A DNA stretch of 63,976 bases, counting the filler, from Craspedostauros australis (Eukaryota): assembly GCA_030167865.1 (NCBI GenBank). It is 12 parts of 12 records of this genome, joined end to end, with 100 filler letters (N's around TTAATTAATTAA, not from the genome) between each part and the next. Parts side by side here need not be neighbours in the genome. Positions count along the whole stretch, not along the records: positions 48,791 to 51,830 come from JALAGF010001116.1; 11 more parts are not named here. One strand, given 5' to 3'. Shown piece by piece: positions 7,101 through 58,814 of the stretch. Made by a program: the position numbers and the translations under genes. The notes beneath the pieces were generated by a model. It did not search any database, had not been told where the DNA came from, and saw only the letters and a list, made by a program, of their open reading frames with translations. Position 1 is the first letter of the stretch. Every line of letters begins with the position of its first letter.

Positions 7101-7510
7101 GACGCGCAGAGAAAAACATGGCTGGCGGTGCCAAGGTGTCGGAAGACATCGCGGACGGTAACGATGGCGACGATGATGACGATCGATCCCTGATCTCCGT
7201 TCGCATCAGACCCCTCCCGTTCCGACGAGGACTGCGGAGGAATCATTTCGGCCCAAGGCCACTGAACACGACCTGGAATCTCAACCCGCAGAAGAGTCCA
7301 CCCCCACCGACCGAGATCGAATTGTGGGAAGAAATGCCGTTCCACGATGCACCGGATCACGGTTTGGAGGATAACATACGATACGTGGGATTGGAGGACA
7401 TGGCAACCCTGCTGGGTTTCGACCAAGAAGACGATGAAGATGGGACATCGTATTTTGACATGGACCATCTGGCATTCGCGCAGCGTTATGGGCGTGGCCG
7501 GTACCTGTAA
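4124..7510 (+). CDS. DUF389 (TIGR00341-like) multipass membrane protein with a long low-complexity N-terminus; true start uncertain
   Basis: Motifs IASILAGVGL..DNTVVIVASMLVSPIMGP, LVGVAISASLLPPAVNSG and SLTVLNIVCI in a 1128-aa uninterrupted ORF. Confidence 0.85.
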   Translation: MHGSSDNIRRHQNTTTMPRSRSNTAENPLANASTAASIAASTAASTGAVASKPDPIVSIGLGMGGRMIGASNHKLQKQYSGVSSTPPQTLSNPGSRHKRKESSAMLLAAAMPNIEGPTSTTKALMVSVICPRRIGHTVTIEAPDDPPQTSMVNSDQPTPGADGANEAHETNKATKQPPPPPPSQPADLALGLELAATESVTATATNPKPKSEVKGILRKSTYSDVGMADAAASIPSDDPNSATSEPTRTLTGAAAAAGTTADMDDQPSEIVPLKLDAANHVSYRSTDATSAALASSTAAANISVGAATDAVPFHEPQTPPAIAQRKTIVKETSQDSITITSETEATPRVGNKTKKQVLDVGDDSTDLMMPPLPAPDLQLPSNNVAAMTRMKTIIEATPNTLQAPDDPTNLKSQHEPSTPVQSDTLPTQQQTALNPPNQTGGERGSDSNGEAISIQPPSAQEEETKSNAKVSVNEEVEQIHFPPYSDDLGGIAHNDQGQNQTQGNGEGEDEDQGDLVGNSIEDRKVTPEEAAAVTPGEHPDENEINMEELLRITFDTLLREWHLLNVPTVAFVDHQKLPTDLVNPYTYSSEDQRQDEGNWMSLQVMVRNSSLGIVLERLERIGVGIMCGTVSIFKMELCKTASPYAHIKEQDEQQLQQQREAEDMSTIGSLTQADDMSLGGVSLKVATDKAIDEAEDREKAEEAERIRNERMIEAARSEWKNAATRLRIEQVREQIVEQAAFSFDFISLLTIASILAGVGLITDNTVVIVASMLVSPIMGPVLGLTFGSRIKDWPLVRASLFNECLALLGCVVVGALVGASSAFTKLADDDWPTNEMEIRGETTGLLTGIAIAIPSGMGVCLGILGGNTSSLVGVAISASLLPPAVNSGICWVYAIMLETGATTSNSGKDARDFAEIGAISFSLTVLNIVCIWAAGIIMFEIKEVAPTTEKSPFWARDLKIARELNDNTRGEKPPPINMSKIREGLKTALRRRRRAEKNMAGGAKVSEDIADGNDGDDDDDRSLISVRIRPLPFRRGLRRNHFGPRPLNTTWNLNPQKSPPPPTEIELWEEMPFHDAPDHGLEDNIRYVGLEDMATLLGFDQEDDEDGTSYFDMDHLAFAQRYGRGRYL

Positions 7511-7708
7511 TTACCGACAGAACATTCGTACTACGAGTATCCGTATCATGACATGGTGCAATGGCATGCACGTACCGTCCTCCATTGACACCACACCCTC
7601 TAGGACGAGCACCACACTACTAGTATGCACGATTATGATCCTTTCTGTATCTATCTGGGCTAAGTCTCCATCGTCTCGACTTCAGAATTGCCTCCTCCCG
7701 ACAACAAT

Positions 7709-9807
7709 TCAGAACTCCTCATCGACAACATCCGCGTTGTATTCGTCTTCCTTCTTCACCTTTGGCGTCGCGTTCCCCATCACGCATCCCATGAGGATCA
7801 TCAACCCACCGACCATGCCGGACTTCGACAACATCTCGCCCATCGTCACGTACGCGAACGCCGCTCCCCACAGGGAGACGCTTGTCATAATGAGCGTGAG
7901 CTCTGATGCGGACACGACCTTCAGTGACACCGTCTCCAGGTACAGAGCCATGGCCGTTGATATCAACCCCGTCCACAGCAGGCATGCCACGATGAATGGG
8001 TCCGTGAACCACTCGACCCACTGGTAGTAGGAGAAAATGATGTCCTGCAGGTTGTTGTGCTCCAACAGCGCCCCGATCATGGCGTACACAGTCGATCCCA
8101 CCGCCACACCACCGACTTGGCCGACAGTTATCCGCCCCGATTGCGTCGGGTGGCTCTGCGACGCGTCTTCAAGACGCCAATAACCCACGCCAAAGAATAC
8201 GGTTTGCCCGAAGGCAAACAGATCTCCGATCGAAATGCTCAAACCAGCTGGGCCCAGTTCCAGAAGACCGACACCCAGGGTTGACAGCCCGACGGCCATA
8301 ACGTCATGCTTCTTCAGCAGCTTGTTCTTGAATGTTGCATCCAACAGAGGGACAACAACAACTGCGAGCGAATTGAAGAAGGCGCTCTGATCATTGTGAA
8401 AAGTGACGAAATTGAATCGGTGTTCATGGCAATAGCCATTGGTTGCGCAGTTGAATTGCATTGAATTGAGTTCAGTTGGGTGGAATGAAACACAAGTTCG
8501 GATGGTGATATTAGTGAGCGCAGGGCCAGCGAGGAAGCACCAACGAGCAATCAATAACACATTCCGTCGATCACATGCCGATAACATGCAGATCACAGAG
8601 ACACAGCTGTTTATCCGTCATCCAACACTGAAGACATTCAAAATCAATTCCAACTTACTTTGCCTGCTGCGACAGTCTCCAACCCCAGCGATTGGCACGT
8701 GTATCCCAAAAAGTACCAGAATCCAATTTCGGCGCCCGCCATCAGCCCGGCATGGCGTTCTCGCAGCAAGTGCTGCTGTTCAGCAACTGTTCTGCCGGAT
8801 GCATTCCTCGAGTCCTCAGAAGCTTCTCTGCCAAAAGTAGCGATGGAAACGGCTGCTGCTGCCAGGCTGAATCGCAGCGCCGCCGATATTTCCATCGGCA
8901 TCGCGACATCCAACATCTTGACGGTGGCAAAGTTGGTCCCGTAGATGGCGGAGGCAACGACGACAATGAGGCGACCGATGCGCAACGATGGCTTGTCAAG
9001 AACAGAAAGGCAGGAAGCGACGGCGACAAGCACCGTTCTCCAAAGTTCGGCAACGGCTGGTGTAGGGCCTCTCGATGCGAAATTCGCATTCTTGGAATCA
9101 AACTCGTGCGAGTCATGGGATGAAGATCGATTGCGACGTATCATGGCCTTGTTGGTTGGCACCAACTCGACTGATGATGGCGTGAGCAAAACCGAAGTGT
9201 CTCTCTGCGCATTCTCTTCATCGTACCTCGCGATGGCTTCGTCGTCCTTTCCAGGCGAAGACGAGTAGTCGGATGCAAGCAAAGCAATGTGATCAGGATG
9301 CGGCTTGTTCTGATGGCCGATCGCCACGGAAGACATGTTCAGCGATGCGGAAGAATCTGGCCGTGGATAGTCACCGGCTGGTTTGTTTGCATTGTCGGAT
9401 TTGGCAACATGCGATGGCGTTGCTATTGGTGCTGATGTTGCCGTTGCCGTTGCCGCTGAGCTTGATGCTACCCGACCGGATGCAAGAGCGGATCGTGCAC
9501 CAATGCGCGGTGAAGCACTGTTGCTGTTGCTGCTGCTATTCGTGTTGCCGTGAATGGTGCCTTGCACACCGCCTTGCACACCGCCTTGCACACCGCCTTG
9601 CATGCTGGTGACCGTCCCAACGCCACCGCTTGGAATGTTGCCATTGTTGGATGCGCCTGTCCCTCGTTTCTTTCCGAATCTCTGGGTGATGCTCGATCCG
9701 CTGTGAGGTGCAGCCGATGAAGGTGCTGATGATGGCATTTTTGTTGTTATTGTTGCTGCTCCTGTTGGTGGTGACCGAGTTGTTTGTGCTTGGACGGCGC
9801 GACACAC
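7709..9807 (-). CDS. EamA/DMT-family transporter, 2 exons (~9807 or a downstream ATG to 8659; 8386-7709)
   Basis: Motifs AIYGTNF, ALRFSLAA and GYTCQSLGL. The intron GTAAG(8658)...TCAG(8387) joins AAGK|SAFFNSLAVVVVPLL. A second EamA half contains LWTGLISTA...GE...GGLMILMG. Confidence 0.88.
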
Positions 9808-48690: not shown

Positions 48691-49259
48691 NNNNNNNNNN
48701 NNNNNNNNNNNNNNNNNNNNNNNNNNNNNNNNNNTTAATTAATTAANNNNNNNNNNNNNNNNNNNNNNNNNNNNNNNNNNNNNNNNNNNNCTTCGACAGT
48801 GAATCGGGTTCTCCACTATTCTCCCGTGCGTGCCCACTGTGACGAAGTAGACAAAAATACATAGGCACATCCATACACACAGCGCGCTGCTCATCGCGCA
48901 CTCCTACCTTCGTCAGACTCAACTGAAAGGCAATGCGTTACTTTGCACCATACTATAATCGTCCAGGGTATCCATGTTGGTGCCTGCTTCCTGCTCGTGT
49001 CATCCTTGTCGTCTCCTCATGCTTCATCATGCAGATCCTGCTAGTTGCTGCTCCCTTGCTCTCCCCTCTGCTCCTACTCACATTCGCACGCACGGTTGCG
49101 CCAATGCCCTTGCCTGTGGTCCAATAGTTGTCTGCATACTCTTGCAATTCATCCTACTTCATTTTCTCCATCCAATTCATCAGAAAGCCACGTGCAAAGT
49201 GACTGTTCCACTGGCCTCTGTTGGAAATCCAGGGTATTGATACTGTAGTCTAATCCTTA

Positions 49260-51429
49260 TTTAACTGTACCGTTTTAGAACTGTGAGAACAACACCTTCA
49301 TTTCTCAATTCCTCAAGTCGTTTGCCCGCGATGATGCTGGTGGCACCCTGTAGTTGCTCCTGCATTTATCATAGCACACTCTCTCCATCATTCACATCTC
49401 ATTGCTCATGACAGGTCCAGTTCATCATGCTTGATCATAGAGGTTCCCTCCTACACTCCTGCAGTGCATGCATACTCTTCTCACATGTTCACTGGTGGTC
49501 ACACTTGGTTCAGAACATGGTGTTCTGGAACGATCATTCCAGTCCTTCAATGATGTTCCAGTTTGCGCTTTGTTCTCCTTCGGCGGTTCCCTTCCAGTCA
49601 TGTAATCATGCTCTGCGTTCTGATTGACACAACTGTGATAGCGTTTTCGCATAGATGTTTCGGTTCAACCAATCAACCATCGTGCTTGGAACACTTCGGT
49701 GTTCCAGTCTCCCTTTTGCATCCACTGTTCGCCAACTTGGTTCGTCAATCATCTCAAAACATGTCACACCTTTAGTCTGTCCTTTGTCCGTCATACTCTT
49801 GACACACAGGGGAGGAAGGTCCACAATCGACTTGGGAGTGTGTCCGACTTTGGTAGATCGGTCAGTCTATTTTTGGTATTATGGGAGGTGCGGCAATCTA
49901 GGATAACACGACATAGTCGCACCCTCGATTCCTGACAATCGTTTTCGCGCTGGTCTGATTGACAGCAGCATTGGAATGCACCTCCCGCGGAAGGACAGCA
50001 GCTGGGTTTGATGAGTAGAACTCAGATGCATCGATTCCCACCTTCAGCCTCTCATGTCGTCTCAGCATCTTCCACTGCACTGTGCTCAATTTTGCGAGAT
50101 TGTACTGTTTGTCTCCAACTGAGATGAAGCCGATGTTTCGCTCATGTGCTCGACTGGATAAGTGTTGGTGGAACAGGTCAAGGCTGGTTGAATTGGACGC
50201 ATCATATCGTTGCCTTGGCCTTGGTACTTGGTGAGCCTCCTTTGATGGCTGTTGAGGAAGGAGGAAGTAGTGCAGGAAATGTGGAGACACGTTGATTGAG
50301 TGGTTGGAGATCAGCATTTCCCTTTTCAACTCACCAGCTCCAATCATGAGCTTGATGATATTGCCAATTCTTCTTGGATGGCTGCATTGCTTTGACATGT
50401 ACAGCTCTGTGCATTGCAGCACCTGTTTGTGAAAGCGGCCACTGGCCTCAAGCCGAAGGCCAGCTTCTTCAAACACCTCGTTGGTCCGCCAGGAGTTGCC
50501 CTGTGCGCGCCACCAATCGTCCAATTGCCAAGAGGAATCAAGTTCGTTGCAAATTGCAACAGCCTCCTAGTATACGCCGTTGCTGTAGGACACCCCACAA
50601 GATGGGTGCTGTTGAGTGATTGGTTGCAGCATGTTGTGCAAATTGCGATGCAGTTGCAACACAGTCAGATGCAAAGTGTCCTTTGCGTGCCCTTGTACTG
50701 CTCAATGGTGTCCGACACGTTCCTATAGTACCATCTCATGCATTCAGAGTTGGTGGCGAAGTCTCCCAGAATCGTTGCATTCGCTTGGCCGACAGAAACT
50801 GGCTTCCCAGCCAGAATGGCATCGCATATGGCTGTGTTTATTGCACCAGCTCGTCCGGAATGCGCAGAGAAATACTGCTTGGGGTAGCCTGCGCTCAGAC
50901 AAAGGTGCCCAAGGAACTTGTATATTGCATTGGGCGACTGGATGCAGAATGTGTTCCCCTTCTGTGTCCAATCCATGTTGTGGCGACATCTCCAAAATCG
51001 TTCAAATGCGGTTGATGCCTCCTGCGACAATATGACGTGCCTGTAGTCAAGGTGGTTTTCTCTGACCTTCACATTTGGATATGTGATGGTCCATCAGCCT
51101 GTCAAGTGATCTTTCCTGGGAGCCTTCTGACTTGGTCAACAAAATGCAACGCTCCTGGCTCCAGTCTCGAACATAGCGGAGAGCAGGGCGATGTTCCTGT
51201 ATGACTTTAGATTGGGTGCAGTGCACTTCTGAAATCTGCGACTGTCAGCCAGCATGATCGGTTCCGCCCGGAGCACGTCCTGTGAGCTGTTCATTTGGAC
51301 GCCCCTGAGGTTCAGGTTGATCTGAGCGTAAGTGTGCGATTTCACTCTCACTGCTCCAATTCCTTTTGCGTACGCAATGTTTCTCCAAGACGGGAATCGC
51401 CGAATTAACTCAACATGCCTTGACATGGG
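49260..51429 (-). mobile_element. Decayed tyrosine-recombinase (YR) element: YR pseudogene (~51429-50665, probable extension to ~49898) plus a downstream decayed ORF (~49850-49260)
   Basis: RNIALLSAMFETGAR ... NVK ... FSAHSGRAG ... LGDFATNSECMRWYY are in one frame once two TGA codons are read through. Confidence 0.75.
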
Positions 51430-51830
51430 CACAAGTCAGCCATTTCATGGGACTTGTGCCATCCTCCTGTAGTTGGAATGGTGTTGACAGATAGTTCATT
51501 CGATGTTGACTGTTACATCACGGTTTCACGTGTTGTTGTGTGTTGTGGCTGGTTGTACCATGTGGCAGTGTGTGTGTGTGTGTGTGTGTGTGAGCACGTG
51601 GATGTGTGAGTATCACAGTTGATGGTGTTGTTCCCCCTCCTCCCCCACAAGTCAGCCATTTCATGGGACTTGTGCCATCCTCCAGTAGTTGGAATGGTGT
51701 TGACAGATAGTTCATTGTGTGTTGACTGATGCATCACAGTCTCACGTGTTGTTGTGTGTTGTGGCTGGTTGTACCGTGTGGCAGTGTGTGTGTGTGTGTG
51801 TGAGCACGTGGATGTGTGAGTATCACAGTT
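51430..51830. repeat. 216-bp tandem repeat (~1.9 copies visible) with a hairpin and a (TG)n tract
   Basis: Units begin cacaagtcagccatttcatggg at 51430 and 51646; the array is truncated by the contig end. Confidence 0.9.
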
Positions 51831-51930: not shown

Positions 51931-54900
51931 AAGATCAACCCTGGCAAGGTGTTTCGCGAGACAACCGCCAACAATGTGACGGTCGCCAAGCAGGCGTACA
52001 AACGCCCCCTACAGTCCCTATCTGAGTGGGTAGACTATGTCATGCGCCGAACACCGGAAGCCAGCGTGGCAACATCGGCAAGCGGTACGTCTGAAGGAAG
52101 AGACGTGTCATCTGATCGTCCACGAGGAGGATCTGCCGCTGGCACACCACCGATACCGCTCCCAACCAGTGGACTTCCCATGTCCGAGCTCACCGTACCC
52201 ATCAAGGAAGGCACAGCGAAGGCGCGAACAAAGGTCACTTTCCAACCACGTGTACCACCAACAGATGCACACCATCCTGCCACAATGGCAGCAAGTGGGC
52301 AGACATCGGTCGACACGGCACAGGCTGACAGCCTCAGCCGCACCACCGAGCACAAACGAGTGAAGCGACCTAACACGTTCCCCGAGCGGTACAAGCTGGG
52401 TGACACCATGCGTTTCACCGAGTTCCGACGTGACATGGAATTCTTCCTGTCGCCATACGGCATGGGGTACCTCATGAACACGGAGTTCGCCACACTCTAC
52501 GCGATGCACGGGAAGCGCGTACTCGAGATGTACGTGGACGACCACTACGAGTCGCACCTCCCATTCGATTCCGTTCAGCTCAAGTCCGATGTCAGCCTGT
52601 TCGCGCGGTTTCTCCGTGAGGCCATCAGCAACACCAGCATGTCGTACCTACTCCGTGGCCCACAGGGCACTGATGGTGTACACATCTGGCAGCAACTGGT
52701 GTTGGAATGCGACAACGTCCAACAACGNCGTGAACGTGCCGCGCTGTTGAAGGCCAGGCTTACACAACGACTCCGTGCCAACGACGACCTCGTAAAATAC
52801 ATCGACGAGTTCCGTGACAATGTGCTTGCATACAACGATGCTGCAGCACGAGAACGCGACCGCTACGACGACACAACCATGTGCGAGATGATGTCACAGC
52901 AAGTGATTGATTCTGGGAATGCGCAGTACATCAACTGGATGCATCTGGTGCGGTCCGGCCGCAAGCACCTCTCCTTCCCAGATTTCTGTCACAAGCTGCA
53001 ACATTATGCGCGTGAGGTCGAGACATCGCGACGACTGCATCACCAACGCCGTGCACGTCCACGTGATCGCGCCGTCGCCAGCGCCCGTACACAAGGAGGG
53101 CAACCGCCTGCATCCTCGACGCCGTACGATGAGGCCTCCGACGACGCTCGGTACATTGCGGTGGAACTCCAGTGCGGCATCGCCAATGCTGAGGCTCTGG
53201 TCTACTCTGCCCAGCCACACGTCGAGACTGCCAACAACGACCCGGACTACATTGACAGTGCCACATTCTCCAAGCTGCCGCAGCAGGTGCGCAAGGTGAT
53301 CCGACGTCTCCGCGAGCGTGCTCGAGGGTACCGCCGCAACCGTGGCAACCGGCGTGACCAGGTCCCTGAACGACCGGCAGCCGCGGATCCCGGGGGGGTT
53401 CATTCGCCTCCAACGCTAGGCACACCAGCCAACGCAACAGCAACAGCCCACAACGCGACAATCCCCATGCAGTACAACGTCAACAGGACGCACAGCTACC
53501 GTGAACGCATGGACAGTGGAAGTACCACAGACAGGGGCGACAACACAGATGGATACAGCAACGAGGACAGCTCATGGTCAGAAGCGACTGATGAAGACTA
53601 CGATGTGATGGACAGTGCCAACCGAATCAGGAATATGCGCATGTACATGGCACAAATGCACCACACGGATGCCGAACTGGAGCCAACCGAGAGCAGAGAA
53701 CACAACCCCACAACGGAATCGATGTACATCGACCTACAAGCCAACGCAACAACCACGGAGGGCGAGTCGTATGCTATATGCGATAGCGGTGCTCAATGCT
53801 CCATCCTGGGAAGTCTTGGTGATGTATGGCAGGTGGAGACCGTGCATATGGGGCGCGTCATCAACGTCATTGGCGCAATACCATCGACAATGAAGAAGAA
53901 TGGACTTCGTGTGGTGTCAGCATGGACGAAGGCAACCCTCGATGATGGCCAGAAGGTCATACTCAAGGCGCACGAGTGCGCACTCAACCCCATGAGTCGA
54001 GTCACATTACTGTCCGAGTACCAGCTCAGGTCTAATGGATGCGTGGTCGACTCTGTATCAAAGAAACACTACAGGTCTCTTGAGCCACCAAAGAAGGGCA
54101 CACAATCATTCATCCCAGCAAAAGGGGCACGCATCGCACTCCAGGCACGAGATGGCTTGATGGCGTTCGACATCGAACCGCCAACACACGAAGACCTCCA
54201 GCAACTCCCCATCTATGAGATCACCAAAGATGAACCATGGAACCCACATGTGGCTGAGGATTCCAAAGATGACATGCAACCATTCCTGAATCAAGTGGCA
54301 TCCATGAAGCATCCAACCGAAGGCGGAACAGAAGTGACCACCACGACATTCGAGGGCCTGGACCACCCGGTTCTGTCCGTGAACACAAGCATGCTTGAAC
54401 AGGATGACAGCATGGAGTATGATGGAGAAGACGAGGCAACTGACTGTGTGGAGCTTGATCCGGTTGATCAATTCCTCAACTCACTGGAGTACGATGGGCT
54501 CGTTGGGCAGGACATGCCGTTCGCGTTCAACCCAGCAGTGTATGCTGCACACGTATCGCGCACAGTGAGAGGCGGAGGCGCACTACGCGAACTGGTGGAG
54601 GATATGGTGCCGACTGGCGGACAAGAGACATGGGAAGACATGGAGGCGTTTCGGGTGCACAACAAAGAGTTGTGGCACATCCACCCACCAGGTGCCACCG
54701 ATGACGAAGACACCACCGTACCCACCGCCAACGTCTACAAGAAGGGTGATGCACATGGCGATGACGTCTCTGCATACGATGATCTCTCTGACGCGATGCA
54801 CAAGATGCACCAACAGCGCATCGACAACAACAACGAACCCGCCGCTACCCATGCGCACGATGTCGGTTTCCGGGTGCGGGCACGTCACAAGGTGGACAAT

Positions 54901-55322
54901 CCAGAGAAGATCCGACCTTACCTTGGATGGCGCAACCTACGCATCGTGAAGGAGACAATCAAGCGCACAACGCAGGACTGCAAGGCGGTGGTTCGGTGGC
55001 CCATGGTTCGGCATCTGCGATCCCGTTTTGCATGGATGCGACGGCCAAGAATCAAAGAGGTGGTGGCAACAGACACTTTCTTCGCAAATGTGCCGTCGTT
55101 TGGCGAGAACTACACATGTGCCCAGGTGTTTTTCGGCACTGCATCACATGTGATCAACATCGTTGGACTACGCACGAAGCAAATGGTCCATGATGCCATC
55201 AACCTGTTCATCCGTGAGGAAGGCGCACCATGGGCGTTTCGCATGGACAACGCTGGTGAGCAGGTTGGTGAGCAGGTCGACCGGATCCTTCGCGAGCTAC
55301 ACATTGGTGTTGAACTCACGGA
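51931..55322 (+). mobile_element. CoDi-like Ty1/Copia gag-protease-integrase polyprotein fragment (copy 1)
   Basis: Gag DGVHIWQQL, protease AICDSGAQCSILG, TLLSEYQLR, integrase ATDTFF...CAQVF...RMDNAGEQ. Integrase follows protease directly (Copia order). Confidence 0.88.
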
Positions 55323-55422: not shown

Positions 55423-58400
55423 AAGATCAACCCTGGCAAGGTGTTTCGCGAGACAACCGCCAACAATGTGACGGTCGCCAAGCAGGCGTACAAACGCCCC
55501 CTACAGTCCCTATCTGAGTGGGTAGACTATGTCATGCGCCGAACACCGGAAGCCAGCGTGGCAACATCGGCAAGCGGTACGTCTGAAGGAAGAGACGTGT
55601 CATCTGATCGTCCACGAGGAGGATCTGCCGCTGGCACACCACCGATACCGCTCCCAACCAGTGGACTTCCCATGTCCGAGCTCACCGTACCCATCAAGGA
55701 AGGCACAGCGAAGGCGCGAACAAAGGTCACTTTCCAACCACGTGTACCACCAACAGATGCACACCATCCTGCCACAATGGCAGCAAGTGGGCAGACATCG
55801 GTCGACACGGCACAGGCTGACAGCCTCAGCCGCACCACCGAGCACAAACGAGTGAAGCGACCTAACACGTTCCCCGAGCGGTACAAGCTGGGTGACACCA
55901 TGCGTTTCACCGAGTTCCGACGTGACATGGAATTCTTCCTGTCGCCATACGGCATGGGGTACCTCATGAACACGGAGTTCGCCACACTCTACGCGATGCA
56001 CGGGAAGCGCGTACTCGAGATGTACGTGGACGACCACTACGAGTCGCACCTCCCATTCGATTCCGTTCAGCTCAAGTCCGATGTCAGCCTGTTCGCGCGG
56101 TTTCTCCGTGAGGCCATCAGCAACACCAGCATGTCGTACCTACTCCGTGGCCCACAGGGCACTGATGGTGTACACATCTGGCAGCAACTGGTGTTGGAAT
56201 GCGACAACGTCCAACAACGCCGTGAACGTGCCGCGCTGTTGAAGGCCAGGCTTACACAACGACTCCGTGCCAACGACGACCTCGTAAACTACATCGACGA
56301 GTTCCGTGACAATGTGCTTGCATACAACGATGCTGCGGCGCGAGAACGCGACCGCTACGACGACACAACCATGTGCGAGATGATGTCACAGCAGGTGATT
56401 GATTCTGGGAATGCGCAGTACATCAACTGGATGCATCTGGTGCGGTCCGGCCGCAAGCACCTCTCCTTCCCAGATTTCTGTCACAAGCTGCAACATTATG
56501 CGCGTGAGGTCGAGACATCGCGACGACTGCATCACCAACGCCGTGCACGTCCACGTGATCGCGCCGTCGCCAGCGCCCGTACACAAGGAGGGCAACCGCC
56601 TGCATCCTCGACGCCGTACGATGAGGCCTCCGACGACGCTCGGTACATTGCGGTGGAACTCCAGTGCGGCATCGCCAATGCTGAGGCTCTGGTCTACTCT
56701 GCCCAGCCACACGTCGAGACTGCCAACAACGACCCGGACTACATTGACAGTGCCACATTCTCCAAGCTGCCGCAGCAGGTGCGCAAGGTGATCCGACGTC
56801 TCCGCGAGCGTGCTCGAGGGTACCGCCGCAACCGTGGCAACCGGCGTGACCAGGTCCCTGAACGACCGGCAGCCGCGGATCCCGGGGGGGTTCATTCGCC
56901 TCCAACGCTAGGCACACCAGCCAACGCAACAGCAACAGCCCACAACGCGACAATCCCCATGCAGTACAACGTCAACAGGACGCACAGCTACCGTGAACGC
57001 ATGGACAGTGGAAGTACCACAGACAGGGGCGACAACACAGATGGATACAGCAACGAGGACAGCTCATGGTCAGAAGCGACTGATGAAGACTACGATGTGA
57101 TGGACAGTGCCAACCGAATCAGGAATATGCGCATGTACATGGCACAAATGCACCACACGGATGCCGAACTGGAGCCAACCGAGAGCAGAGAACACAACCC
57201 CACAACGGAATCGATGTACATCGACCTACAAGCCAACGCAACAACCACGGAGGGCGAGTCGTATGCTATATGCGATAGCGGTGCTCAATGCTCCATCCTG
57301 GGAAGTCTTGGTGATGTATGGCAGGTGGAGACCGTGCATATGGGGCGCGTCATCAACGTCATTGGCGCAATACCATCGACAATGAAGAAGAATGGACTTC
57401 GTGTGGTGTCAGCATGGACGAAGGCAACCCTCGATGATGGCCAGAAGGTCATACTCAAGGCGCACGAGTGCGCACTCAACCCCATGAGTCGAGTCACATT
57501 ACTGTCCGAGTACCAGCTCAGGTCTAATGGATGCGTGGTCGACTCTGTATCAAAGAAACACTACAGGTCTCTTGAGCCACCAAAGAAGGGCACACAATCA
57601 TTCATCCCAGCAAAAGGGGCACGCATCGCACTCCAGGCACGAGATGGCTTGATGGCGTTCGACATCGAACCGCCAACACACGAAGACCTCCAGCAACTCC
57701 CCATCTATGAGATCACCAAAGATGAACCATGGAACCCACATGTGGCTGAGGATTCCAAAGATGACATGCAACCATTCCTGAATCAAGTGGCATCCATGAA
57801 GCATCCAACCGAAGGCGGAACAGAAGTGACCACCACGACATTCGAGGGCCTGGACCACCCGGTTCTGTCCGTGAACACAAGCATGCTTGAACAGGATGAC
57901 AGCATGGAGTATGATGGAGAAGACGAGGCAACTGACTGTGTGGAGCTTGATCCGGTTGATCAATTCCTCAACTCACTGGAGTACGATGGGCTCGTTGGGC
58001 AGGACATGCCGTTCGCGTTCAACCCAGCAGTGTATGCTGCACACGTATCGCGCACAGTGAGAGGCGGAGGCGCACTACGCGAACTGGTGGAGGATATGGT
58101 GCCGACTGGCGGACAAGAGACATGGGAAGACATGGAGGCGTTTCGGGTGCACAACAAAGAGTTGTGGCACATCCACCCACCAGGTGCCACCGATGACGAA
58201 GACACCACCGTACCCACCGCCAACGTCTACAAGAAGGGTGATGCACATGGCGATGACGTCTCTGCATACGATGATCTCTCTGACGCGATGCACAAGATGC
58301 ACCAACAGCGCATCGACAACAACAACGAACCCGCCGCTACCCATGCGCACGATGTCGGTTTCCGGGTGCGGGCACGTCACAAGGTGGACAATCCAGAGAA

Positions 58401-58814
58401 GATCCGACCTTACCTTGGATGGCGCAACCTACGCATCGTGAAGGAGACAATCAAGCGCACAACGCAGGACTGCAAGGCGGTGGTTCGGTGGCCCATGGTT
58501 CGGCATCTGCGATCCCGTTTTGCATGGATGCGACGGCCAAGAATCAAAGAGGTGGTGGCAACAGACACTTTCTTCGCAAATGTGCCGTCGTTTGGCGAGA
58601 ACTACACATGTGCCCAGGTGTTTTTCGGCACTGCATCACATGTGATCAACATCGTTGGACTACGCACGAAGCAAATGGTCCATGATGCCATCAACCTGTT
58701 CATCCGTGAGGAAGGCGCACCATGGGCGTTTCGCATGGACAACGCTGGTGAGCAGGTTGGTGAGCAGGTCGACCGGATCCTTCGCGAGCTACACATTGGT
58801 GTTGAACTCACGGA
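55423..58814 (+). mobile_element. Same CoDi-like fragment (copy 2, near-identical)
   Basis: Same first and last nucleotides as copy 1. I found only 4 substitutions and one N difference. Confidence 0.88.

What the first reader, a model, noticed from the sequence alone, without database searches (positions are those of the whole stretch)
49898..51429. Tyrosine recombinase of unclear element class
Seen: reading through two in-frame TGAs gives a full YR catalytic domain with R (TGAR), K (NVK), HxxR (HSGR), F at the H/W position (LGDF) and Y (MRWYY). It is probably followed, after a frameshift, by a ~250-aa C-terminal extension (49898-50660). No RT, RNase H or methyltransferase motifs are visible in the contig. 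Established: eukaryotic YRs occur in DIRS/Ngaro, Cryptons (CryptonS in stramenopiles), Polinton-like viruses and Starships. Inference: this may be an unclassified YR DNA element or an endogenised virus fragment.
Basis: partly seen in the sequence, partly recalled or inferred. Interest (0 to 1): 0.7.

Follow-up and report, generated by a model that had tools for sequence, protein, structure and literature searches.

The report
Broken subtelomeric recombinase of diatom transposon
This is a dead copy of a DNA cut-and-rejoin enzyme gene from a little-known family of jumping genes in a diatom, notable mainly because this branch of the family sits next to chromosome ends.

Summary
The tyrosine recombinase (YR) is real. 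The window copy is dead: 5'-truncated, two frameshifts, three stops, 3' end replaced by an LTR. Five sister copies (94%) show that the YR and the C-terminal part are one ORF. The host is a diatom and carries five subfamilies. A full-length paralogue folds like Cre (Z 15.7) and adds a conserved ~240-aa C-terminal domain. Twenty-four distant homologues exist, none with a known-family name among 20 clusters looked up. No DIRS-type reverse transcriptase or viral gene was seen beside any copy. All six copies of this subfamily are fused to a repeat module that adjoins the telomere in 8 of 10 telomere contigs. Variants shared between copies are mostly synonymous. Best reading: a Crypton-like, YR-only DNA element of an apparently unnamed lineage, whose truncated branch spread between subtelomeres by recombination. 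Element ends were not found, and CryptonS homology could not be tested directly. Earlier notes of this scan report telomere-linked YR-RecQ fusions and Crypton-like elements in other diatom DNA, but no look-alike sequence.

The parts
51430..51830 (-). Two tandem ~216-bp units of the subtelomeric repeat module. Each holds a ~30-bp hairpin (51460-51428 and 51676-51646). The module supplies an ATG (51448) that is in frame with the YR in the five sister copies.
51411..51429 (-). Module-to-YR junction, shared by all six subfamily-A copies, followed by an 11-nt deletion private to this copy
50681..51410 (-). C-terminal half of the core-binding domain plus the YR catalytic domain (R 51156, K 51069, H 50862, R 50853, F 50760, Y 50730); stops at 51138 and 51096
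49938..50680 (-). Family-conserved C-terminal domain, reached after a 1-nt deletion; TAG at 50569; same ORF as the YR in sister copies
49219..49937 (-). LTR (TG...CA) 91-93% like an LTR of the Copia-type retrotransposon in C5636; interrupts the ORF 46 codons before its normal end; no target duplication; the YR does not resume after it
48791..49218 (.). Sequence beyond the LTR with no match in the other fetched contigs; not part of the YR unit

Best explanation
The locus is a non-functional copy of a stand-alone, intronless tyrosine recombinase gene (core-binding domain, Cre-like catalytic domain, conserved ~240-aa C-terminal domain) from a Crypton-like DNA element, in the loose sense of a YR-only eukaryotic transposon. 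Shown: the fold, the catalytic residues, five subfamilies in this diatom, the breaks in this copy, and the link of subfamilies A and B to telomere-adjacent repeats. Inferred by analogy with Cryptons: full-length members excise as circles and reintegrate by YR crossover at short microhomologies. Inferred for subfamily A: one element lost its 5' end by fusion to the telomere-adjacent module, was copied between chromosome ends by ectopic recombination or break-induced replication, stayed under purifying selection for a time, and the copies then decayed. This copy also lost its 3' end to an LTR-mediated rearrangement.
For: Six A copies at 94% and further subfamilies at 27-53% in the same search; the seven own-genome rows form one clade, SH-aLRT 96, quick tree. 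The paralogue YR-B is a stop-free 1,539-aa ORF with R, K, HxxR and Y. Its model (pLDDT 86) matches Cre best (Foldseek E 5e-6; Z 15.7, rmsd 4.5, 274 aligned); ESM Atlas neighbours are phage integrases at 0.97; PHROG integrase E 8e-4. A metagenome homologue sits alone as one intronless ORF on a 3.3-kb contig. Private changes in A copies are neutral (32 synonymous of 109; 30% expected), shared ones are not (23 of 38, p 8e-5; non-CpG 14 of 25, p 0.002), the usual pattern of a mobile family. Shared variants form incompatible splits and the proximal ends of homology are staggered at +1586, +1969 and +2571, as subtelomeric exchange would give. Other retroelements also lie in these subtelomeres, and TE density rises beside subtelomeric satellites in Ectocarpus (PMC12477816, passages).
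Against: No element terminus, terminal direct repeat or empty site was found, so mobility is not shown. Selection on variants shared by copies that all carry the truncation is not expected of a mere passenger, and no full-length A copy or orphan A N-terminus was found as a donor. The module's hairpin segment has a 73% homologue beside subfamily D, which ties module and element more closely than chance refuge would. C, D, E and truncated B copies show no telomere module.
Confidence: 0.6

Rival explanations
1. Telomere-linked recombinase. The YR acts at chromosome ends, recombining at the conserved hairpin or at telomere-like junctions, so that telomere+module(+YR) units are added to, or exchanged between, chromosome ends by single crossovers. 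The module is its non-autonomous partner.
For: 6 of 6 A copies are fused to the module; 8 of 10 telomere contigs begin with it. YR-B starts 9.4 kb from a telomere tract across an exact 2,102-bp contig overlap. A and B point away from the telomere. Module tails end in CCCTAA-type sequence joined to many different flanks. The hairpin stem differs between module and subfamily D by paired changes. In C3013 the unit ends 12 nt after the stop and joins mid-gene with 2-nt microhomology. Selection persisted on variants shared by truncated copies.
Against: The hairpin comparison rests on two independent sequence types only. It is inverted relative to the YR in D versus A and B. Only one one-sided junction was seen, and ordinary repair explains it. 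The only stop-free A copy has Leu at the second catalytic Arg, and A lacks half of the core-binding domain. Three subfamilies show no telomere link. Retroelements lie in the same regions and could move the module.
Confidence: 0.15
2. A divergent CryptonS: the stramenopile Crypton group with a YR, no GCR1_C and a conserved C-terminal region, normally 2.5-5.9 kb with 5-7-bp terminal direct repeats.
For: Diatom host (92 silicon-transporter matches). Same broad plan, YR plus conserved C-terminal region without GCR1_C (PMC3212892 passages). One homologue is from a diatom transcriptome.
Against: None of 20 homologue clusters looked up comes from NCBI or UniRef, where oomycete CryptonS proteins should lie (my knowledge, not tested). 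No TATGG, TTACTG or CTGTAAG pair flanks the A copies in shared positions, though their ends are undefined.
Confidence: 0.12
3. Integrase remnant of a Polinton-like or other DNA virus of diatoms.
For: YRs occur in such viruses (established knowledge). Homologues come from environmental assemblies of unknown origin, some on 10-34-kb contigs whose gene content I could not see.
Against: No viral gene was seen in ORF surveys around the own-genome copies. The one homologue locus read carries only the YR. No pattern match in IMG/VR (close relatives only).
Confidence: 0.07
4. Orphan YR of a DIRS/Ngaro/VIPER-type retrotransposon whose RT part is lost or unassembled.
For: Cre-like fold, which DIRS-type YRs share (recalled). 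RT genes lie within a few kb of some copies.
Against: Those RTs are Copia or non-LTR types by motif and are not shared between YR loci. D copies share over 2 kb upstream with only a short divergent ORF and LTR pieces. L101 has 1.15 kb upstream with no ORF over 90 codons.
Confidence: 0.06

Closest known systems
CryptonS (oomycetes, Phaeodactylum; Kojima & Jurka 2011, PMC3212892)
   Same: YR-only plan, stramenopile host, conserved C-terminal region, no GCR1_C, low copy number
   Different: No TATGG-type termini seen; no named oomycete homologue retrieved; long acidic and low-complexity tails (to 1,539 aa); subtelomeric repeats around A and B. Sequence homology untested.
Cre recombinase (phage P1)
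   Same: Best structural match over core-binding and catalytic domains (Z 15.7, 15% identity)
   Different: F or Y at the H/W position in own-genome copies; extra ~240-aa C-terminal domain
CryptonV (microsatellite-targeting Cryptons; one passage in PMC8869645)
   Same: Precedent for a YR transposon tied to simple repeats
   Different: Reported from cnidarians; targeting is not shown here; no sequence compared
Telomere-linked helicase genes and yeast Y' elements (recalled; diatom YR-RecQ fusions in scan notes e1-7530817, e1-7505181)
   Same: Multi-copy genes just inside telomeres, spread by subtelomeric recombination
   Different: No helicase domain in any family member seen
Protelomerases / telomere resolvases (TelA, TelK, ResT)
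   Same: YR-fold enzymes connected with chromosome ends
   Different: Much weaker structural match (Z 7.1, 6.2, 5.2) than Cre; this genome has ordinary CCCTAA telomere tracts

Membership tests
Tyrosine recombinase superfamily | Catalytic R-K-HxxR-(H/W)-Y in order | tested here: met
   All present in the window copy with F at H/W; R, K, H, F, Y in 6 of 6 A copies, second R in 5 of 6
Tyrosine recombinase superfamily | Core-binding plus catalytic fold | tested here: met
   Model of paralogue YR-B: Cre top in Foldseek and VIA. The window protein itself was not modelled.
Tyrosine recombinase superfamily | Pfam PF00589 over cut-off | tested here: not met
   No hit for P0001 or P0002; 1 of 25 family proteins at E 0.0018, below cut-off; PHROG integrase E 8e-4 for 1 of 25
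Crypton (broad sense) | YR as the only mobility enzyme, no RT of its own | tested here: met
   ORF surveys and pairwise maps of the YR loci; L101. Short-read contigs only.
Crypton (broad sense) | Short terminal direct repeats, no TIRs; empty sites | tested here: inconclusive
   Ends could not be defined; copies are nested in other TEs
CryptonS | C-terminal region homologous to that of CryptonS | not testable with these tools
   No CryptonS sequence or profile was available; supplement 1 of PMC3212892 lists names, lengths and termini only
CryptonS | TATGG (or TTACTG, TAATG, CTGTAAG) terminal direct repeats | tested here: inconclusive
   TATGG, TTACTG and CTGTAAG scanned on both strands around 6 A copies: no shared flanking pair, but ends unknown; TAATG not scanned
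CryptonF | GCR1_C DNA-binding domain | tested here: not met
   No GCR1_C or NDC10_II Pfam hit at E 0.05 in 25 family proteins or at E 1 in P0002
CryptonA / Starship | DUF3504 or DUF3435 type YR | tested here: not met
   No such Pfam hit
DIRS / Ngaro / VIPER | RT and RNase H (plus methyltransferase) in the element | tested here: not met
   None shared among YR loci; nearby RTs belong to other retroelements. Fragmented assembly is a caveat.
Polinton-like virus | Capsid, packaging ATPase, replication gene, TIRs | not tested
   No capsid profile was run; only ORF inspection, Pfam scans of 18 neighbouring ORFs and an IMG/VR pattern scan
Telomere-linked helicase (YR-RecQ fusion) | RecQ helicase fused to the YR | tested here: not met
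   No helicase domain in 25 family proteins; no hit among longer proteins, weak evidence
Protelomerase | Closer to TelA/TelK/ResT than to recombinases | tested here: inconclusive
   Z 7.1, 6.2, 5.2 against 15.7 for Cre

The most novel reading that the evidence does not exclude
An unnamed eukaryotic YR lineage, part of which has become a telomere-linked recombinase in diatoms: it recombines at a conserved hairpin or telomere-like junction and so adds or swaps telomere-capped modules on chromosome ends, with a truncated form kept under selection.
Probability: 0.13. Interest if true: 0.85.

Novelty: new variant of a known kind. Interest (0 to 1): 0.5.

Why it matters
Eukaryotic YR elements are few and poorly classified. 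This family escapes Pfam and carries an uncharacterised conserved domain, so TE annotation will miss it; alignment A2 is a usable probe. If the subtelomeric link is only refuge, it adds one more Crypton-like lineage. If the enzyme works on chromosome ends, it would be a site-specific route to subtelomere exchange in a eukaryote with ordinary telomere repeats. The window copy itself is dead and ordinary.

Tried and rejected
Alternative genetic code: rejected, because sister copies have sense codons at the window's stops and the stops are private. The ORF after the YR in C3013 as a second element gene: rejected, it is the 3' part of a gene that is whole in C6368. PDB sequence search with A2 gave only summed weak repeats matches with no single significant stretch: treated as spurious. 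Right end of subfamily D at the C4329 breakpoint: rejected, the breakpoint lies inside an LTR fragment. Empty-site search for the A 3' flank: none among 7 matches. PF00589 and PF16787 searches of the genome: no match; the second had no positive control. C-terminal domain alone: model pLDDT 84, best Z 4.5 and no Foldseek hit at E 0.001, no usable Atlas hit; this shows neither absence nor novelty. Alignment-based locus searches could not be run; single-protein scans gave L101, a weak second locus L102 that the family profile does not recognise, and nothing in IMG/VR. The tree is the quick one, with long branches and no outside references. Literature searches with no paper on this family in the listings. 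Scan look-ups by sequence and by place found nothing.

Full report
Setting. The window is a chain of contigs joined by N spacers. The finding lies in a 3,040-bp contig, window 48791-51830 = G000:C1116. The genome (65.9 Mb, 6,734 contigs) gives 92 matches to the silicon-transporter family, many full length, so the host is a diatom.

Observation. Against the stop-free sister copy the window copy has an 11-nt deletion at codon 12, a 1-nt deletion at codon 255 and three stops. An LTR of about 720 bp (49937-49219), 91-93% like an LTR in C5636, cuts the ORF short. It has no target duplication and the YR does not resume. Pfam does not recognise the protein, but a profile from 23 environmental homologues alone hits both frames (iE 3e-70, 2e-30).

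Family in this genome. A DNA search scored 40 of 225 candidates and gave 42 matches: six long ones (the window and five at 94-95%) and mostly short LTR hits. A protein search gave 35 matches from 33 candidates, which I sorted into subfamilies A to E. In C6310 the YR and the C-terminal part form 553 stop-free codons, but its second catalytic Arg is Leu. The other five A copies have early stops or frameshifts. YR-B in C5878 is a stop-free 1,539-aa ORF with R, K, HxxR and Y, about 135 extra N-terminal residues and a long low-complexity tail. All six A copies lack that N-terminal part and share one junction. A search with the B N-terminus found 14 matches and no orphan A piece. Seven own-genome rows form one clade in a quick tree of 31 rows (SH-aLRT 96).

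Family elsewhere. phmmer over 1.84 billion representatives gave 24 hits at E 0.001 or better. They share the three-part plan. I looked up 20 clusters (19 of these 24 plus P0047): 19 come from ENA, JGI or Logan and are unnamed or 'hypothetical', one is a Leptocylindrus danicus transcriptome protein, none is from NCBI or UniRef. One homologue locus could be read: a 3,308-bp contig with a single long intronless ORF and a 21-bp tandem tail.

Fold. The YR-B core model has pLDDT 86. Cre is the top match by Foldseek (E 5e-6) and VIA (Z 15.7; XerA 13.7; TelA 7.1; Ndc10 5.2). Viral matches are generic integrases at 9-17% identity. The C-terminal domain is conserved in sequence across the family; its function is open.

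Telomere link. The repeat upstream of the YR contains a 31-bp word found 139 times in the genome (control 0). Tracts of seven or more CCCTAA occur on 10 contigs, all at contig ends. Eight of the ten continue into the head of the same ~1.1-kb module; the other two continue into an array that also lies downstream of YR-B. Of 118 hairpin copies in the fetched contigs, 6 run into YR-A and the rest stay in the module or end at a gap. The telomere contig C3640 overlaps C5878 exactly over 2,102 bp, which puts the YR-B start 9.4 kb from the tract; a third contig (C245) shares part of this region, so the join is not unique. The telomere contig C6248 matches the far end of C6310 at 93-96%, which puts that YR-A about 13 kb from an end by homology. 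C2731 holds the 3' part of a YR-B ORF about 5.7 kb from its tract. All of these point away from the telomere. For the window copy the subtelomeric position is inferred from the module only. Subfamilies C, D, E and three truncated B copies lie in TE nests with no module.

Module and element. A ~110-bp part of the module, including the hairpin, has a 73% homologue about 200 bp downstream of YR-D in four contigs, in reverse orientation (nhmmer E about 1e-12). The 8-bp stems differ by paired changes and both fold. That is two independent types, so it is suggestive only. Module tails end in telomere-like sequence joined to diverse flanks. The same subtelomeres hold Copia pieces (Pfam) and two kinds of non-LTR retroelement, which I call CRE-like and Ambal-like from recalled motifs. 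So the region is also a general TE refuge, as reported for Ectocarpus (PMC12477816, passages).

Selection. Among the six A copies, single-copy changes are neutral (32 synonymous of 109; 30% expected), while shared changes are mostly synonymous (23 of 38, p 8e-5; 15 multi-hit codons set aside). The excess holds outside CpG sites (14 of 25 against 27%, p 0.002). Sharing patterns are mutually incompatible, which points to exchange between copies. Caveats: six copies, majority-based polarity, non-independent sites, collapsed short-read assembly. As all six share the truncation, either the truncated gene was still selected or unassembled full-length donors exist.

Mechanism. Most likely (0.6) a Crypton-like YR-only element: excision and reintegration by YR crossover is inferred from Cryptons (PMC3212892, first 10,000 characters, passages and supplement 1; PMC13465315, passages), not shown here. 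Subfamily A is best read as a truncated derivative fused to the subtelomeric module and spread by recombination between ends: homology to C6310 stops at staggered points (+1586, +1969, +2571), and in C3013 the unit joins the middle of a gene that is whole in C6368. No terminus, direct repeat or empty site was found. The bolder reading, a recombinase acting on chromosome ends (0.15), fits the same junctions and the hairpin but is not required. CryptonV gives a precedent for repeat targeting (PMC8869645, passage).

Known families. It works like a Crypton in the broad sense. It fails the domain tests for CryptonF, CryptonA, Starship and DIRS-type elements. Seven library searches listed no paper on this family (listings and abstract starts only, apart from the papers named; PMC12130899 passages added nothing). 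Scan notes describe telomere-linked YR-RecQ fusions and Crypton-like elements in other diatom DNA; no helicase is seen here and sequence look-ups found no look-alike.

Verdict. Observation confirmed with corrections; interpretation partly supported. A dead copy of an apparently unnamed Crypton-like lineage with a real subtelomeric association. New variant of a known kind; interest 0.5.

Noticed in passing
G000:C4492:6039-8681 (L146:775-3285): An 881-codon open frame holding only the core-binding domain of this YR family (48% to YR-B), ending at the linker before the catalytic domain and fused to a low-complexity and coiled-coil-like region; one match in the genome, no catalytic domain in the 19 kb examined. 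Candidate domesticated DNA-binding domain.
   Followed up: partly
G000:C1103, C1666, C3640, C5236, C5667, C6248, C6373, C6667 contig ends: A ~1.1-kb module with a fixed head next to the telomere tract and a tail ending in telomere-like sequence, joined to many different flanks including the inside of a Copia gag. Looks like a capping or telomere-targeted unit.
   Followed up: partly
G000:C3640:3750-6494 and C6373:1852-4207 (minus strand): Degraded non-LTR retroelement with RT, CCHC and endonuclease-like motifs (CRE-like, label recalled), starting at the same point in two telomere contigs and pointing away from the telomere.
   Followed up: partly
G000:C5360:1669-9546: Near-complete non-LTR element (endonuclease, RT and RNase H-like motifs; Ambal-like, label recalled) between two telomere modules.
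   Followed up: no
G000:C3013:2110 and C6368:2214: The YR-A unit is joined 12 nt after its stop to the 3' part of a gene of unknown family that is whole in C6368 (97% identical): possibly a healed chromosome break on one haplotype.
   Followed up: partly
window 51931-55322 and 55423-58814: Two neighbouring contigs give the same ORF list at an offset of 3,492 bases, including a gag-like 1,163-codon frame: probably a duplicated contig.
   Followed up: no
G000, genome-wide: 92 silicon-transporter matches, several with internal stops: a large family, or inflated by haplotypes and fragments.
   Followed up: no
G000:C1289:4362-4901 (minus), also C308 and C5212: Short ~180-codon ORF divergent from YR-D and shared by D copies; no Pfam hit.
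   Followed up: partly
P0013: Family member of 1,283 aa with a WW domain N-terminal to the YR: possible fusion or domestication.
   Followed up: no
G000:C6310:4033-5616 and 7398-8783: Two similar genes proximal to the YR-A subtelomere; the first has MATH and BTB domains.
   Followed up: no
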